Below, one piece after another: positions 1-25,919 of a stretch of DNA of 46,736 nt (within the stretch, counting starts at the first letter, position 1; each line of letters starts with the position of its first letter). The notes under the pieces were generated by a model. That model ran no database searches. It had not been told where the DNA came from and was given only the letters and a program-made list of their open reading frames with translations. Source of the DNA: Escherichia phage BEK6; sequence record MN158208.1; one strand, 5' to 3'. Both the position numbers and the translations under genes were made by a program.

Positions 1-507
1 ATGAGCAAAGAAGCATTAAAGATGGGTGAGGGAAATTTCAAGGCGCTATACAACAAGAAGTATGGCGATATTGCTATGGTGGCAATCAATCGCAAGTACA
101 CGCCTGAGGAAGTTTTCGATTTCGCTGTTCGATACTTCTCATGGGCTGAGAGTGAGGCAATCAAAGCTATTGAGACGGCAGCTTTCCGGGGCGTTGTTAG
201 TGAAAACCTTGTACACAAGCCGCGAGTGTTCACATTAACCGGGCTGGCGCTATTCATGGGTGTTAACATCAATAGATTCGCACGCTGGCGTACAGAGGCT
301 GGGTACTCTGACGTGATGGAATTCATTGATAACGTAATCTACGAGCAAAAATATCAACTTGGCGTTGCAGGTATTATAAACTCCACAATCGTTGGTAAAG
401 AACTTGGCATTGATAAGCCGCAGGAGATTACCATTAGCAACAACTCCACAGCTAACGACGTTGATAGCATGAAGGAAGCGTTGGAATCCGTTATTAGTAA
501 GCTGTAA
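1..507 (+). CDS. putative terminase small subunit
   Basis: 168-aa ORF beginning at window position 1, directly upstream of the large terminase gene; assigned by position and size only. Confidence 0.5.
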   Translation: MSKEALKMGEGNFKALYNKKYGDIAMVAINRKYTPEEVFDFAVRYFSWAESEAIKAIETAAFRGVVSENLVHKPRVFTLTGLALFMGVNINRFARWRTEAGYSDVMEFIDNVIYEQKYQLGVAGIINSTIVGKELGIDKPQEITISNNSTANDVDSMKEALESVISKL

Positions 508-676
508 CAATACGATGGTATAACAATGATTGACGCAAAACTTAGCACATCAATGGTAGCTGGAGAGCCATTTTACACGCTTGAGGTCTTCAAGGATGGT
601 GAGTTAATTCATATTGAAGGATTTTTTGATATCTACAAAGCAAAATCAGCACAACGAAAGTGGTGGAGAAACTAAC

Positions 677-2242
677 ATGTCATTAGTATGGGAACAAATG
701 ACCATTCAGGAAAAGATGGCCGTCAAGGCGATATCAGAACACAGCTTCGAGGGTTTCCTTCGTTGCTGGTTCCAAATCACGCAGGGTGAGCGATACATCC
801 CTAACTGGCATCACAAGTACTTGTGCAGAATCATTGACGAGATTATTGCGGGTGAGCGCAAGGACACTATCATCAACATAGCTCCAGGTAGCGGGAAGAC
901 GGAAATAACATCAATCCACTTCCCCGTCTACTCGATGCTGAAGCTGAAGAAGGTTCGCAACCTGAATATCTCGTTCGCAGACTCAAACGTTAAGCGAAAC
1001 TCAAAGCGTGTCCGAGACTTGATATCATCAAAGGAGTTCCAGGAGCTCTGGCCTTGCAAGTTCGGAACAAATAAGGGTGACGAGATTCAGATCGTTGACG
1101 ACAGTGGAAAGGTTAGATTCGAGTCCATATCAGCATCAAAAGGAGGCAGGATTACTGGTACGCGTGGTGGATATATCACTGACACATACAGTGGCGCGGT
1201 AATGCTGGATGACTTCGACAAGCCAGACGAGATGTTTTCACCTGTATACAGAGCAAAGAGTCACACCCTACTTGGTAATACCATCCGTTCACGTCGCGCA
1301 AGTTCGGTAAGAGGTAAAGCAACTCCAATTATTCAGATTCAGCAGCGACTTCATGTCAATGACTCGACATGGTTCATGCTTAGCGGTGGTATGGGTATTG
1401 ATTTTGATTTGGTGAAGATACCTGCGCTTGTTACTGAAGATTACGTCGACACACTACCTGACTGGATTAAGCAGCAATTCATTGATGATGTATTATCAAG
1501 CGAATACGTTGAGCGTGACGGGGTGAAGTACTACAGCTACTTCCCAGGAAAGGAATCTGTGCATGATCTGGTTGCGATGTGGGATAGTGATCCGTACACT
1601 TTCCTCAGCCAGTATCAACAAGAACCTGTAGCTCTAGGCGGCAACCTGATTAACGTGGATTGGTTCCAGCGCCTTAGCGATACATTCAGACCTCCAGCTA
1701 AATACGACTATAGATTCATCACATGCGATACTGCGATGACTACAAAGAGTTATAGTGACTTCTCTGTACTTCAGTTGTGGGGATATAAGGATGCTAAGAT
1801 TTACCTCATAGACCAGCGGCGTGGTAAATGGGAAGCGCCAGATTTGGAAGCTGAACTGCTGGACTTTGAGAAGAAATCAAGGGCAACCAGTCAGACAGAT
1901 GGAATCCTCCGAAAGATTGTCATCGAGAAGAAAGCCTCTGGTATCGGCCTGATTCAATCAGCTGGCAGGGTTATGCGAACACCGATAGAGCCATACGTTC
2001 CGGATAACGACAAGCTAACCAGGGTGATGAGCGCCATGCCGCAGATTAAGGCTGGTAACGTGGTTCTACCGGAGTCTGCGCCGTGGCTAAATGGATTGCT
2101 TACGGAGATTGCGGCTTTTACTGCTGACGACTCACACAAACACGACGACCAAATTGATACCATGACAATGGCAATAAACCTGGTGCTTAACATTGCGGAT
2201 GATCCTAAGGCGCGACTAATGCGCATAGCGGGAATTAAATAG
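677..2242 (+). CDS. terL: terminase large subunit
   Basis: Walker A-like IAPGSGKT near the N-terminus, ~520 aa; GGAG RBS 8 nt before ATG 677 (track ORF opens at TTG 614). Confidence 0.85.
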   Translation: MSLVWEQMTIQEKMAVKAISEHSFEGFLRCWFQITQGERYIPNWHHKYLCRIIDEIIAGERKDTIINIAPGSGKTEITSIHFPVYSMLKLKKVRNLNISFADSNVKRNSKRVRDLISSKEFQELWPCKFGTNKGDEIQIVDDSGKVRFESISASKGGRITGTRGGYITDTYSGAVMLDDFDKPDEMFSPVYRAKSHTLLGNTIRSRRASSVRGKATPIIQIQQRLHVNDSTWFMLSGGMGIDFDLVKIPALVTEDYVDTLPDWIKQQFIDDVLSSEYVERDGVKYYSYFPGKESVHDLVAMWDSDPYTFLSQYQQEPVALGGNLINVDWFQRLSDTFRPPAKYDYRFITCDTAMTTKSYSDFSVLQLWGYKDAKIYLIDQRRGKWEAPDLEAELLDFEKKSRATSQTDGILRKIVIEKKASGIGLIQSAGRVMRTPIEPYVPDNDKLTRVMSAMPQIKAGNVVLPESAPWLNGLLTEIAAFTADDSHKHDDQIDTMTMAINLVLNIADDPKARLMRIAGIK

Positions 2243-22734: not shown

Positions 22735-22825
22735 CTCTCTTTGTTTTTGCGCTACCGATTTTCGGTATCACAAGCAGCACCATTGCCGCCATGCGCCTAA
22801 ATATACCTAAAGATATCCAGTTGTC

Positions 22826-22845
22826 TTTAGCAAATAGTGCTATTT
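22826..22845 (-). promoter_or_regulatory. palindrome copy (AAATAGCACTATTTGCTAAA on minus strand) upstream of the Rha-like gene
   Basis: Minus-strand TATATT (forward 22800-22805) 22 bp downstream; about 70-nt leader to ATG 22734. Confidence 0.45.
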
Positions 22846-22966
22846 ATAGCCAATTTCACCACAAATCACAGTTACACGTAACCGATGTAACTCGATGTAT
22901 ACAATCTCATCCGCGGAAAATGATATACGCCCTGTTACGCCAATTTACGCATTAGTTACATTAAAA

Positions 22967-23030
22967 TATCTATATATATCAACATTTTACTCTTATTATT
23001 ATTATTATATATATTACTGTGTATATCATG
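22967..23030. repeat. AT-rich repeat element with (TTA)n tract, copy A
   Basis: ATATCTATATATATCAACATTTTACTCTTATTATTATTATTATATATATTACTGTGTATATC; near-identical copy at 41828-41896. Confidence 0.7.
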
Positions 23031-23255
23031 TAACTACTTCTATAGAGTGTTCCGGTTATAATTTTAATATCATGTGGATTTATACAGTATTGCGTGACAG
23101 CTATACCAATGCACCCCCCCCTGCAAGAAACGGTATACACGATATACACGATGGTTACATTGAGCTATGGCTGGGCTGAGATGCCATTTTACGTAACTAG
23201 TGGCAACACCTACACGGAATTACAAGGATTCACGCGTAAGTTTAAATCAATCTGC

Positions 23256-23284
23256 TTGACATCAATGCGGATTAGTTGTACTAT
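23256..23284 (+). promoter_or_regulatory. candidate sigma70-type promoter for the HNH gene / plus-strand early operon
   Basis: TTGACA (23256-23261), 17-bp spacer, TACTAT (23279-23284). Confidence 0.5.
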
Positions 23285-23314
23285 CAATTAAACAAAACAG
23301 CGGAGGGCTTATTT

Positions 23315-23806
23315 ATGGAATGGGGAGACATCTTTGAATACAGCAACGGAAAGCTTTACTGGAAGATAAGACCAGCAATGAGGATGAGGGTTGGCGACCT
23401 TGCGGGGACGGAATGTAAGGGTTACATTCAAGTTAACTGCAAAGCCAAATCGGGGGTAAATAAACTATATAGGGCGCATAGGATTGTATGGGAAATGCAT
23501 CATGGACCAATACCAGAAGGGGTAGTTATCGACCACATTAATGGGAATGGTCTAGACAACAGGATTGAGAACCTAAGAGTGGTTACGCAAGCAGATAATC
23601 AGAAGAACAAGAAGGTTGGTAAAAACAATGAAAGTGGTGTTCTTGGTGTTGCTTGGTATAAGCCTAGTTCGAAGTGGGTCGCTAGAATATCTAAGGATGG
23701 GAAGTGGTCACATATTGGGTATTTCGATAATTTCGAGGATGCCGTAAGAGCTAGGCGAGAAGCTGAATTAGAATTCAAATATCACGAAAATCACGGGAGA
23801 CGTTAA
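23315..23806 (+). CDS. HNH homing endonuclease with AP2-like DNA-binding domain
   Basis: HNH motif (YRAHRIVWEMHHGPIPEGVVIDHINGNGLDNRIENLR) followed by GVLGVAWYKPSSKWVARI...GYFDNFEDAVRARREAE; GGAGGG RBS, TTGACA-17-TACTAT promoter upstream. Confidence 0.7.
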   Translation: MEWGDIFEYSNGKLYWKIRPAMRMRVGDLAGTECKGYIQVNCKAKSGVNKLYRAHRIVWEMHHGPIPEGVVIDHINGNGLDNRIENLRVVTQADNQKNKKVGKNNESGVLGVAWYKPSSKWVARISKDGKWSHIGYFDNFEDAVRARREAELEFKYHENHGRR

Positions 23807-23807
23807 A

Positions 23808-24002
23808 ATGACCTACTACATTATCAAAGAGAAAAACAACGCACTATTCGGCGACTGCTACTTTGGTGGCCCTGCCGGATACACAACGAATAAGAACGAG
23901 GCAGACCGATTCGAGACTAAAGAAGAAGCCAGAGATGTACTGACCGGTTACTTCACTGAGGAAGATTTGAAATCGTTTAAGATTGTTAAGGTTAAGGATT
24001 GA
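23808..24002 (+). CDS. hypothetical protein
   Basis: 64-aa ORF tightly packed after the HNH gene. Confidence 0.4.
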   Translation: MTYYIIKEKNNALFGDCYFGGPAGYTTNKNEADRFETKEEARDVLTGYFTEEDLKSFKIVKVKD

Positions 24003-24007
24003 TTGAG

Positions 24008-24226
24008 ATGAAAACATGTGAAGAGAATTTTATATCACTAAATGATTTTATTGGTGATGATTTTGACTATTCTGATGTAATTGTTACATGGACTGCTGGA
24101 GGAGACGTTTTTTCAGATATGCTGATTTATAGTACAGACTATAGCAACTACCATTGGGAAGAAGACGAAGAATACGAAGAGGCTAGACTTTATTATTCTG
24201 AAATCATTAACGTTAAGAGAGTTTAA
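24008..24226 (+). CDS. small highly acidic protein
   Basis: 72 aa, very Asp/Glu-rich (WEEDEEYEEARLYY); AAGGA RBS; sits upstream of the exonuclease/ERF/SSB genes. Confidence 0.4.
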   Translation: MKTCEENFISLNDFIGDDFDYSDVIVTWTAGGDVFSDMLIYSTDYSNYHWEEDEEYEEARLYYSEIINVKRV

Positions 24227-24230
24227 GAAA

Positions 24231-25196
24231 ATGACATTTACCGTATACACACGAGAAGAGTTAACCAACGATGCTTATCACTCAGAGACTGACCACATTT
24301 CCGGTAGCTCACTTGTCGAGATTATCCAGGGTTCGCCAGCTAAGTGGAAGTTTAAACAGCGCAACAATGATAGCAAGGCGCTCAAGTTTGGAACACTGAG
24401 TCACACGTACATCCTCGAAGGTGACATGTTTGATAAAGAATACCTTCGAGCTACAGACCTTGACGCGATTGAAGGATTAATTACAAGCCAGACCGGATTA
24501 TCTGCAGCGCTGAAAAAAGTTGGCGTAGCTGGCACGTCCGGGAAGAGCTATAGCGAACTCGTAGAGATGATGTATCGATCTGGTGAGGATTGGCCTGTTA
24601 AATGGCTAATTGAGCAGCAGGAGAGCGCTCAAGCGCTTGTGGATGGTAAGGAGCTAGTTAGTGCCGCTGACTACGATAAAGTTGTGGCTATGCGTGAGGT
24701 TCTTTGCAATATACCGGCATATAATGCAATCGTGAATAGTGAGACAGCGCAAAAAGAGCTATCAATCTTCGGTGAAATTCTCGAGGTTGGGGTTAAGATT
24801 CGAATTGACCACGTAGATGTTGTTGATGGCGTTGTTCGGATCACAGATTACAAAACTACCGCAGACGCTAGCCCAGAAGGCTTTGGCAAGTCAGCATTCT
24901 CGCACGGATACCTTGCAAAAATGGCGCTTCAGCGAGATCTTTTTGTGAAGGCATTCAACGAGAAGCGAAAGGTTGTTGTAGGATTGCTGGCACAAGAGAA
25001 AGTGGAGCCATACCTCCCCATGCTTTACACCTTGACGGATGAGCAGCTAAGAATCGGCCGATTGCAGTATCTTGAGGCTCTTGCCACATATAAGAAGTGC
25101 AAGGAGCTTGATATCTGGCCTGGCTACTCAAATGGCATTACAGAGCAAGAGCTATTGGTTCCTGATTGGGCATTAAAACAATACAAAGAAATCTAA
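24231..25196 (+). CDS. PD-(D/E)xK family exonuclease (recombination nuclease)
   Basis: RIDHVDVVDGVVRITDYKT core resembling the D...(D/E)xK nuclease motif; adjacent to ERF and SSB genes. Confidence 0.6.
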   Translation: MTFTVYTREELTNDAYHSETDHISGSSLVEIIQGSPAKWKFKQRNNDSKALKFGTLSHTYILEGDMFDKEYLRATDLDAIEGLITSQTGLSAALKKVGVAGTSGKSYSELVEMMYRSGEDWPVKWLIEQQESAQALVDGKELVSAADYDKVVAMREVLCNIPAYNAIVNSETAQKELSIFGEILEVGVKIRIDHVDVVDGVVRITDYKTTADASPEGFGKSAFSHGYLAKMALQRDLFVKAFNEKRKVVVGLLAQEKVEPYLPMLYTLTDEQLRIGRLQYLEALATYKKCKELDIWPGYSNGITEQELLVPDWALKQYKEI

Positions 25197-25235: not shown

Positions 25236-25919
25236 ATGATTACCCCATCAACGACGAACGAGGTTAATATGCAAATTTCAGAATCATGCAAATCAATTTT
25301 AAACGCGCTGCACACTGCCAAATCGCTATTTGCGAAGGCTGAAAAGTCTAAGCAGAACTCACACTTAAAGAACAAGTACGCTACCCTAGAAGACGTTTTG
25401 GCGGCCGTTGAGCCTGGTTTAGATGAGTGTGGGCTTGTTATGTTCCAGAGTGTACTTGATGATGAACAAACCAATCGCATGAAGGTTGAGACAAAACTGT
25501 TTCATGCTGAATCTGGAGAGTGGGTTAGCTTCTTGATGATCGTACCAATCAGTAAGAATGATGCACAAGGTTACGGCTCAGCTTTAACATACGCTCGACG
25601 TTACGGAATCACAGCGGCGTTAGGACTTAGCCAGGCAGATGATGATGGTAATCTCGCAGCGAAAGGTGTTAAGGACTTTAAGCGAGAGCTAGAGAAATGC
25701 AATACTCTTGATGAGCTTCGCAATGTCTGGAAGGAGGCTAAGCAGTCACTTGATGCGGCAGGATGGAAGGTTTTCGAACCCCACATCATAGAGCGAAAGG
25801 CAGAGATTGAAGCAAATGCAGCAACTGGCTTCAACCCAGCAGAACCAAAGAAAGTTGCAGAAAAAAGTAGTCCTGAAGAAAAGATTAAAGTAGAATCAAA
25901 ACAAATCGACACATTCTAA
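25236..25919 (+). CDS. ERF-family single-strand annealing protein
   Basis: Conserved ERF-like segments (KYATLEDV..., GSALTYARRYGITAALG); ATG 25269 is an alternative start. Confidence 0.65.
   Translation: MITPSTTNEVNMQISESCKSILNALHTAKSLFAKAEKSKQNSHLKNKYATLEDVLAAVEPGLDECGLVMFQSVLDDEQTNRMKVETKLFHAESGEWVSFLMIVPISKNDAQGYGSALTYARRYGITAALGLSQADDDGNLAAKGVKDFKRELEKCNTLDELRNVWKEAKQSLDAAGWKVFEPHIIERKAEIEANAATGFNPAEPKKVAEKSSPEEKIKVESKQIDTF

What the first reader, a model, noticed from the sequence alone, without database searches (positions are those of the whole stretch)
23315..23806. HNH-AP2 homing endonuclease at the early strand-switch boundary
An HNH nuclease motif fused to an AP2-like DNA-binding segment is the first plus-strand gene after the AT-rich control region and has a strong TTGACA-17-TACTAT promoter. 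Free-standing homing endonucleases are mobile, and their presence often marks recent insertion points that vary between related phages.
Basis: partly seen in the sequence, partly recalled or inferred. Interest (0 to 1): 0.4.

Follow-up and report, generated by a model that had tools for sequence, protein, structure and literature searches.

The report
Mobile HNH-AP2 homing endonuclease cassette
This is an ordinary selfish "homing endonuclease" gene of a well-known phage type. It sits in a T1-like coliphage where most relatives have only an 81-bp promoter segment, and sequence comparison shows it moved between phages recently, bringing its own promoter.

Summary
ORF 23315-23806 (+) encodes a 163-aa protein with an HNH_3 nuclease domain (Pfam E 9e-23; closest solved structure I-HmuI). 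Its C-terminal AP2-type domain is weak by Pfam (20.3 bits, cut-off 33.3), but the predicted fold matches AP2.

The window is a Braunvirinae (T1/Rtp-like) coliphage. Its relatives align up to 23250 and again from 23806, and carry 81 bp where the window has 555 bp. A 331-bp probe across that site runs uninterrupted in 83 of 102 matching GenBank phage records. No GenBank phage has an ortholog.

Four metagenome contigs carry orthologs (99, 99, 76 and 70% aa) at exactly this site, with the same promoter. Against the 99% contig, the cassette has 2 mismatches in 598 bp, while the flanks differ by about 10% (Fisher p 1e-15). That indicates recent lateral transfer. dN/dS of 0.06-0.09 indicates a functional protein.

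The TTGACA-17-TACTAT promoter lies inside the cassette, and it replaced a native promoter-like segment. As a bare consensus match it is no better than chance. Its support is conservation across the four cassettes.

Verdict: a new member of a known kind, of low to moderate interest. Cleavage and target site are untested.

The parts
23251..23805 (+). Mobile cassette: a 555-bp segment that replaces an 81-bp segment of HNH-less relatives
   Evidence: BLASTN homology to Rao1, BEK3, G8 and 12210I ends at 23250 and resumes at 23806. Each of those phages has 81 bp between the two points. Against L005 and L006, positions 23227-23824 carry only 2 mismatches while the flanks differ by about 10%.
23256..23284 (+). 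Sigma-70-type promoter carried by the cassette (TTGACA, 17 nt, TACTAT)
   Evidence: Consensus scan, 10/12. The hexamers and the 17-bp spacing are conserved in window, L005, L007 (TTTACA) and L008, while neighbouring bases vary. The consensus match alone is not beyond chance. Function is inferred, not shown.
23302..23307 (+). Shine-Dalgarno sequence GGAGGG, 7 nt upstream of the ATG
   Evidence: Read directly from the sequence.
23315..23806 (+). HNH-AP2 endonuclease gene (163 aa plus stop codon)
   Evidence: ORF list; Pfam; PHROG_99; PADLOC 'HEase' homing endonuclease at 7e-10. dN/dS against orthologues is 0.06-0.09.
23468..23602 (+). HNH_3 (His-Me finger) nuclease core, residues 52-96. It holds D73-H74, N82, N86, N95 and N98.
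   Evidence: Pfam HNH_3 at 9e-23. These residues are invariant or nearly invariant in 44 homologues. In the phmmer alignment, D73/H74 and N95 align with D74/H75 and N96 of I-HmuI (1U3E). The roles of those I-HmuI residues come from my recollection of Shen et al. 2004.
23636..23773 (+). AP2-fold DNA-binding domain, residues 108-153 (three strands plus a helix)
   Evidence: AF2 secondary structure: E112-115, E120-127, E130-137, H140-153. Foldseek matches AtERF1 (1GCC) and TEM1 AP2 (7ET5) at rmsd 1.6-1.8 A with probability 1.00. Pfam AP2 is weak at 7e-4, but 28 of 44 homologues hit it.
23795..23810 (+). Right junction: GGGAG Shine-Dalgarno for the next gene lies inside the HNH 3' end, followed by TAA (23804-23806) and the ATG of the 64-aa gene (23808)
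   Evidence: Read from the sequence. The stop-to-start geometry is the same in L005, L007 and L008. No terminator-like site lies between the two genes.

Best explanation
The locus is a free-standing homing endonuclease gene (HEG) cassette in a Braunvirinae (T1/Rtp-like) coliphage. It consists of its own sigma-70 promoter, a ribosome-binding site, and a 163-aa enzyme.

The enzyme has an I-HmuI-type HNH_3 (His-Me finger, 'HNN') nuclease core. A C-terminal AP2-fold domain supplies sequence recognition.

**Proposed mechanism (inferred).** During mixed infection, the enzyme nicks or cuts the HNH-less allele at or very near the 81-bp promoter segment upstream of the 64-aa gene. Recombinational repair using the HNH-carrying genome as template then copies the cassette in. 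The 81-bp segment is replaced in the process, so the carrier genome no longer holds the presumed target.

Transcription from the cassette promoter should read through into the downstream early recombination operon (64-aa gene, PDDEXK exonuclease, Erf), because there is no intervening terminator.

**Shown here:** domain identity, intact catalytic residues, purifying selection, presence/absence polymorphism, same-site occupancy, and recent lateral transfer of exactly this segment.

**Inferred:** nuclease activity, the target site, nick versus double-strand break, and promoter function.
For: **Domains.**
- HNH_3 at E 9e-23; PHROG_99 at 2e-66; PADLOC 'homing endonuclease' at 7e-10.
- The best solved-structure relative is I-HmuI, by sequence (E 2e-5) and by fold (E 1.5e-4).
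- The AP2 fold superposes at 1.6-1.8 A.
- Catalytic D73-H74, N82/N86 and N95/N98 are conserved across 44 homologues.

**Polymorphism.**
- Four annotated relatives have 81 bp where the window has 555 bp.
- A 331-bp probe spanning the empty site matches uninterrupted in 83 of 102 matching phage records.
- No GenBank phage encodes an orthologue. The best tblastn hit is 54% identical and lies elsewhere in its genome.

**Site specificity.** Orthologues at 99, 76 and 70% aa identity occupy the identical slot in metagenomic Braunvirinae-like contigs, with the same junctions and promoter.

**Mobility.**
- Window against L005: 2 mismatches in 598 bp across the cassette, against 53 in 542 bp of flanks (Fisher p 1e-15).
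- Synonymous divergence is 0.010 in the HNH gene and 0.40-0.49 in the two neighbouring genes.
- Against L008 the reverse holds: HNH pS 0.79, flanks 0.23-0.59.

**Function retained.** dN/dS is 0.06-0.09.

**Literature.** HNH(HNN)-AP2 is a recognised HEG class in phages, including T1 and Rtp (PMC2248197, PMC5714182, PMC10448857).
Against: - No cleavage assay exists and no target site has been identified.
- The Pfam AP2 score for this protein is below the gathering threshold.
- Only four orthologous copies were found. Two of them, L005 and L006, are near-duplicates. Scans of IMG/VR and JGI metagenomes found no more.
- The identical tract between window and L005 could reflect ordinary homologous recombination between co-infecting phages, without endonuclease help.
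- The promoter is a consensus match no better than chance in isolation.
Confidence: 0.8

Rival explanations
1. The gene is a domesticated or beneficial nuclease rather than a purely selfish HEG. The phage keeps it as a weapon for interference competition against co-infecting relatives, or to degrade host or satellite DNA. Its spread by gene conversion is a by-product.
For: Purifying selection is strong over deep divergence (dN/dS 0.06-0.09 with saturated synonymous sites). The gene is the first gene of an early operon and has its own promoter. HEG-mediated interference between phages is discussed in the literature (PMC10448857).
Against: The gene is absent from the great majority of sequenced relatives, so it is dispensable. 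The biochemical activity would be the same as in the homing model, so the two readings are not exclusive. Sequence data cannot separate them.
Confidence: 0.12
2. The nuclease is inactive and the protein acts as an AP2-type DNA-binding regulator of the early region. This would be a HEG on the way to becoming a transcription factor, as proposed for the origin of plant AP2 factors.
For: The gene sits at a control region and carries an AP2-fold domain. A short inverted repeat brackets the -35 element in the cassettes, which could be an operator. HEG-to-regulator transitions are documented (Magnani 2004, as cited in PMC10448857).
Against: All HNH_3 catalytic and structural residues (D73, H74, N82, N86, N95, N98) are intact and conserved. 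Purifying selection acts on the whole protein. Recent lateral transfer of exactly the cassette fits an active HEG better.
Confidence: 0.05
3. The gene is a packaging-associated HNH, like HK97 gp74, that assists terminase in cutting concatemers.
For: Many siphoviruses encode an HNH protein that is needed for terminase function.
Against: The terminase genes are at window 1-2242, about 21 kb away. The protein belongs to HNH_3/I-HmuI group 2 with an AP2 domain, not the terminase-adjacent HNH type (PMC5714182). Most relatives lack the gene, so it cannot be essential for packaging.
Confidence: 0.01

Closest known systems
I-HmuI (Bacillus phage SPO1 intron-encoded HNH homing endonuclease, PDB 1U3E)
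   Same: It is the best solved-structure match by sequence (E 2e-5) and by fold. Both belong to Pfam HNH_3 / His-Me finger group 2 (PMC5714182). The aligned D-H...N...N catalytic residues match, and there is no Zn-binding Cys dyad.
   Different: I-HmuI is intron-encoded and uses a C-terminal helix-turn-helix (IENR/NUMOD-type) DNA-binding domain. This protein is free-standing and uses an AP2-fold domain. Sequence identity is only about 22%.
HNH(HNN)-AP2 free-standing endonucleases of phages (Xanthomonas phages Xp10/OP1/Xop411, T1, Rtp, T5, RB49, Felix O1; Magnani et al. 2004 class; 'IPA-HNH' of ICP1)
   Same: They share the two-domain architecture, with conserved boxes (AHR, DH, DNR, NLR, N..N), and the same sporadic distribution (PMC2248197, PMC10448857). 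Thousands of phage records hold homologues (3861 records).
   Different: This lineage is at most 54% identical to any GenBank phage protein. It occupies a specific slot, upstream of the 64-aa gene of the recombination operon, that no deposited genome has filled with an HNH. The Xoo-phage paper reported dispersed, apparently sequence-independent insertion. Here three diverged alleles sit at one and the same site.
T4 free-standing HEGs (seg and mob genes, e.g. mobE)
   Same: They are intergenic selfish nuclease genes with their own promoters. They spread in mixed infections by cleaving the HEG-less allele and co-converting flanking markers.
   Different: They belong to different nuclease families or sub-families (GIY-YIG segs; the mob HNH genes fall in another His-Me group per PMC5714182). 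The T4 examples are experimentally demonstrated and this one is not.

Membership tests
HNH_3 / His-Me finger group 2 (I-HmuI-like) | Profile match above the curated threshold | tested here: met
   PF13392 scores 80.1 bits against a cut-off of 24.8, E 9e-23. All 44 homologues match.
HNH_3 / His-Me finger group 2 (I-HmuI-like) | Catalytic Asp-His general base, a structural Asn and a metal-ligand Asn are present | tested here: met
   D73-H74, N82/N86 and N95/N98 are invariant or at least 90% conserved. D73/H74 and N95 align to D74/H75 and N96 of I-HmuI. The residue roles are recalled from Shen et al. 2004.
HNH_3 / His-Me finger group 2 (I-HmuI-like) | Beta-beta-alpha-metal fold resembling I-HmuI | tested here: met
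   AF2 model with pLDDT 90.8. The top Foldseek PDB hit is 1u3e_M at E 1.5e-4, probability 1.00. Global TM is only 0.44 because the C-terminal domains differ.
HNH_3 / His-Me finger group 2 (I-HmuI-like) | Divalent-metal-dependent DNA nicking or cleavage | not testable with these tools
   This needs a biochemical assay.
AP2 DNA-binding domain (PF00847) | Profile match above the curated threshold | tested here: not met
   20.3 bits against a cut-off of 33.3, E 7e-4. Of 44 homologues, 28 match at E < 0.01, best 7e-9.
AP2 DNA-binding domain (PF00847) | Three-stranded antiparallel sheet packed on a C-terminal helix | tested here: met
   Model elements E112-115, E120-127, E130-137 and H140-153. These superpose on 1GCC (31% id, rmsd 1.6 A over 48 columns) and on 7ET5 (rmsd 1.8 A), both at probability 1.00.
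AP2 DNA-binding domain (PF00847) | Sequence-specific DNA binding | not testable with these tools
   No assay is available here.
Free-standing homing endonuclease gene | Sporadic presence/absence among close relatives, with a clean empty site | tested here: met
   Breakpoints at 23250 and 23806; relatives carry 81 bp where the window has 555 bp. The site is uninterrupted in 83 of 102 matching records.
Free-standing homing endonuclease gene | Same insertion site in independent genomes | tested here: met
   L005/L006, L007 and L008 carry orthologues with identical junction geometry.
Free-standing homing endonuclease gene | Gene history discordant with that of its flanks (lateral transfer) | tested here: met
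   pS is 0.010 in the HNH gene against 0.40-0.49 in its neighbours for window-L005. For window-L008 it is 0.79 against 0.23-0.59. Fisher p 1e-15.
Free-standing homing endonuclease gene | Cleaves the HEG-less allele and shows super-Mendelian inheritance in crosses | not testable with these tools
   This requires a cleavage assay and mixed-infection crosses.
Terminase-associated packaging HNH (HK97 gp74 type) | Adjacent to the terminase genes and conserved in all relatives | tested here: not met
   The terminase genes are at 1-2242. The gene is absent from most relatives.

The most novel reading that the evidence does not exclude
The cassette is more than a passenger. On invasion it deleted the resident promoter-like segment of the early recombination operon. 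That segment is TGGACT-17-TATAGT within the 81-bp stretch, with hexamers conserved and spacer variable in HNH-less phages. The cassette substituted its own promoter.

Two consequences would follow. First, the swap removes the enzyme's presumed target, giving self-immunity. Second, expression of the 64-aa gene, the exonuclease and Erf now depends on the HEG's promoter, so simple deletion of the cassette would be costly. This would be a promoter-capture form of HEG 'addiction'.

The short inverted repeat bracketing the -35 element might be an autoregulatory operator for the AP2 domain, as is known for I-TevI autorepression.
Probability: 0.2. Interest if true: 0.45.

Novelty: new member of a known kind. 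Interest (0 to 1): 0.25.

Why it matters
- **Annotation.** The gene can be named with confidence as a free-standing HNH-AP2 homing endonuclease, not a core gene. Positions 23251-23805 should be excluded from phylogenies of this phage group.
- **Natural-history example.** Three diverged alleles share one site. One pair of phages shows a transfer confined to the cassette plus at most 24 bp and 19 bp of flank. The HEG replaced a resident promoter with its own.
- **Practical use.** If the target is mapped, the enzyme would be a candidate site-specific nickase or nuclease and a marker-driving tool for engineering T1-like phages.
- **Limits.** None of this is conceptually new. The enzyme class, its mobility and its association with recombination boundaries are all established.

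Tried and rejected
- **Packaging HNH.** Rejected. The terminase genes are 21 kb away and the gene is dispensable.
- **Promoter significance from the consensus score.** Rejected. The window has 10 sites at 10/12 or better against 15 expected, and the regional scan found 8 against 7.2 expected. Only conservation supports the promoter.
- **More orthologues.**
  - IMG/VR peptide scan: only paralogues at 46% identity or less. An earlier attempt failed for lack of a queue slot.
  - Promoter DNA pattern in IMG/VR and in JGI metagenomes: no match.
- **NCBIfam.** No family matched.
- **Paralogues in the window.** tblastn found none.
- **Homology between the 81-bp native segment and the cassette promoter.** About 38% identity in the MAFFT register by my hand count from A3, which is not convincing.
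- **Remnants of the HNH gene in empty-site phages.** None; only 3-7% spurious coverage.
- **Compositional anomaly of the cassette.** None; 42.3% GC against 44.2% for the window.
- **Repeats in the intergenic region.** Nothing compelling from the repeat finder. ACGTAAC occurs 7 times against 3.3 expected, and 5 of 100 shuffles reach 7.

Full report
**What is there.** The ATG is at 23315 and is preceded by GGAGGG at 23302-23307. The TAA stop is at 23804-23806, and the product is 163 aa. Homologues start at the same methionine, so the longer TTG-initiated ORF from 23276 is an artefact of ORF listing.

The gene lies after a 580-bp intergenic region (22735-23314). That region is 37% GC, with a 24.5% GC core at 22930-23080, against 44% for the window.

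This region separates two gene groups:
- A leftward trio on the minus strand: a DUF6453 protein, a Cor-like phage lipoprotein and a pRha-family protein.
- A rightward operon on the plus strand: a 64-aa gene, a 75-aa ORF, a PDDEXK/DUF3799 exonuclease and an Erf annealase.

**What the protein is.**
- Residues 52-96 match Pfam HNH_3 at E 9e-23, well above threshold.
- The whole protein matches PHROG_99 'HNH endonuclease' at 2e-66 and PADLOC's 'homing endonuclease' model at 7e-10. NCBIfam has no model for it.
- The only significant solved-structure relative by sequence is I-HmuI (1U3E, E 2e-5). D73-H74 and N95 align with I-HmuI D74-H75 and N96. From my recollection of Shen et al. 2004, these are the general base and the metal ligands.
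- In an alignment of 44 homologues, H55, N82 and N86 are invariant. D73, H74, N76, D81, R83, N95 and N98 are at least 90% conserved.
- The C-terminal AP2 assignment is weak by Pfam for this protein: 20.3 bits against a 33.3 cut-off. However, 28 of 44 homologues hit AP2, the best at 7e-9.
- An AlphaFold2 model (pLDDT 90.8) shows three strands plus a helix at residues 112-153. This element superposes on AtERF1 (1GCC) and TEM1 AP2 domains at 1.6-1.8 A. I-HmuI is the top whole-chain hit.
- The HNH_3 + AP2 combination is a recognised homing-endonuclease architecture in phages, including T1 and Rtp (PMC2248197; PMC5714182 group 2; PMC10448857).

**Genomic context and polymorphism.** The window is a Drexlerviridae/Braunvirinae coliphage. 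It is about 88-90% identical over most of 24 kb to vB_EcoS_FP, BEK3 and the Veterinaerplatzvirus isolates.

In Rao1, BEK3, vB_Ec-G8 and vB_EcoS-12210I, homology to the window stops at 23250 and resumes at 23806. Each of these phages has 81 bp between the two points, where the window has 555 bp.

A 331-bp probe spanning the 12210I 'empty' site is matched without interruption in 83 of 102 matching GenBank phage records, Rtp among them. No record in the 50,697-genome phage collection encodes an orthologue. The best tblastn hit is 54% identical and lies elsewhere in its genome.

JeanPiccard and TR2 keep the 81-bp segment but have a different insert of about 190 bp, a small gene, immediately before the 64-aa gene. 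This slot is therefore a hot spot for accessory DNA.

**Same site in other phages.** The 5.8-billion-protein search found three close relatives at 99, 76 and 70% aa identity. All are encoded on metagenomic Braunvirinae-like contigs in exactly this slot. The same left junction is used, and the stop codon lies 1 nt before the ATG of the 64-aa gene.

The promoter TTGACA (TTTACA in L007), 17 nt, TACTAT is conserved in all of them, while the surrounding bases diverge.

HNH-less phages have a different promoter-like element inside their 81-bp segment (TGGACT-17-TATAGT). Its hexamers are conserved across phages and its spacer varies.

The event replaced a native promoter-like segment and was not a simple insertion. 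As a bare consensus match, the promoter is not significant: the window has 10 sites at 10/12 or better against 15 +/- 3 in shuffles. Its function is inferred from position and conservation only.

**Evidence of mobility.**

| Comparison | HNH gene or cassette | Flanks |
|---|---|---|
| Window vs L005/L006, mismatches | 2 in 598 bp (23227-23824) | 32 in 368 bp left; 21 in 174 bp right |
| Window vs L005, synonymous divergence (pS) | 0.010 | 0.40 and 0.49 in the next two genes |
| Window vs L008, synonymous divergence (pS) | 0.79 | 0.23-0.59 |

- The mismatch contrast between cassette and flanks gives Fisher p of about 1e-15.
- The near-identical tract exceeds the cassette by at most 24 bp on the left and 19 bp on the right. 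Both stretches are conserved in all relatives anyway, so the exchange end-points cannot be placed more precisely.
- Against L008 the pattern is reversed: the HNH gene is more diverged than its flanks.
- The gene's history is therefore decoupled from that of its neighbours in both directions. This is expected for recurrent homing of diverged alleles into one site.
- dN/dS of 0.06-0.09 at saturated synonymous divergence shows the protein is under strong purifying selection and is not decaying.

**Mechanism (inferred).**
- During mixed infection the enzyme would nick or cut the HNH-less allele at or near the 81-bp segment. The short exchange tracts argue that the lesion is close to the insertion point.
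- Repair from the carrier genome would install the cassette and remove the presumed target.
- No terminator-like site separates the HNH gene from the 64-aa gene, so the cassette promoter probably also drives the downstream recombination genes.
- Nick versus double-strand break cannot be decided. From my own knowledge, I-HmuI-type enzymes are typically nickases.

**Rivals.**
- A packaging HNH is excluded. The terminase genes are at 1-2242, and most relatives lack the gene.
- An inactive nuclease acting as an AP2 regulator is unlikely, given the intact and conserved catalytic residues.
- A 'beneficial weapon' reading is biochemically the same activity. Sequence data cannot separate it from the selfish reading.

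**What led nowhere.**
- Scans of IMG/VR and JGI metagenomes gave no further orthologues. An earlier attempt failed for lack of a queue slot.
- The window holds no paralogue.
- The cassette shows no compositional anomaly.
- Empty-site phages hold no HNH remnants.

**Verdict.** The observation and the interpretation are both right. The gene is an ordinary, apparently active, recently mobile member of a well-known class. Two modest extras emerged: the cassette carries its own promoter and displaced the resident one, and three diverged alleles share one site. Novelty: new member of a known kind. Interest: 0.25.

Noticed in passing
window 23999-24226: This is a second variable slot, between the 64-aa gene and the PDDEXK exonuclease. 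Homology to every relative breaks at 23998 and resumes at 24207-24276. The window has a 75-aa acidic ORF there with no Pfam hit. Contig L007 carries a second, different HNH_3-AP2 gene (160 aa) in that slot. In TR2 the gene there is annotated 'regulatory protein'.
   Followed up: partly
L009 (JeanPiccard) 1201-1719; L010 (TR2) 1150-1700: These phages keep the 81-bp native promoter segment. They have an insert of about 190 bp, encoding a small protein, exactly between the native leader and the 64-aa gene. The annotated ORFs have no Pfam hit. The slot occupied by the HNH cassette is therefore a general accessory-gene hot spot.
   Followed up: partly
window 23251-23271: A short inverted repeat brackets the -35 hexamer of the cassette promoter. 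The arms are TCTGC...GCGGA in the window, TCCGC...GCGGA in L007, and ATATG...CATAT (shifted by 1 nt) in L008. It could be an operator for autoregulation. There are only three independent sequences and no statistics were run.
   Followed up: no
window 22735-23314: The pentamer GTTAC/GTAAC occurs 8 times in the intergenic region against 1.35 expected from its density in the window (Poisson p about 8e-5). One occurrence is the near-palindrome GTTACACGTAAC at 22871. Some 580-bp window reaches 9 copies; I did not check whether it overlaps this region, so the enrichment may not be unique. These could be regulator-binding sites for the divergent early promoters.
   Followed up: partly
window 22930-23080: This is the AT-rich core of the intergenic region, at 24.5% GC. 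It holds (TTA)n and (TA)n runs and several overlapping promoter-like sites on both strands. It is conserved in Rao1. It is probably the divergent early promoter or control region, or an origin-like element.
   Followed up: no
L005 2112-2978: In the metagenomic contig whose HNH is 99% identical, the gene after the exonuclease is called as a single 288-aa product with both Dam methyltransferase and ERF hits. In G8 these are two separate genes, and the window shows only the Erf gene here (25236-25919). This is likely a gene-calling fusion or a presence/absence difference of a Dam gene.
   Followed up: no
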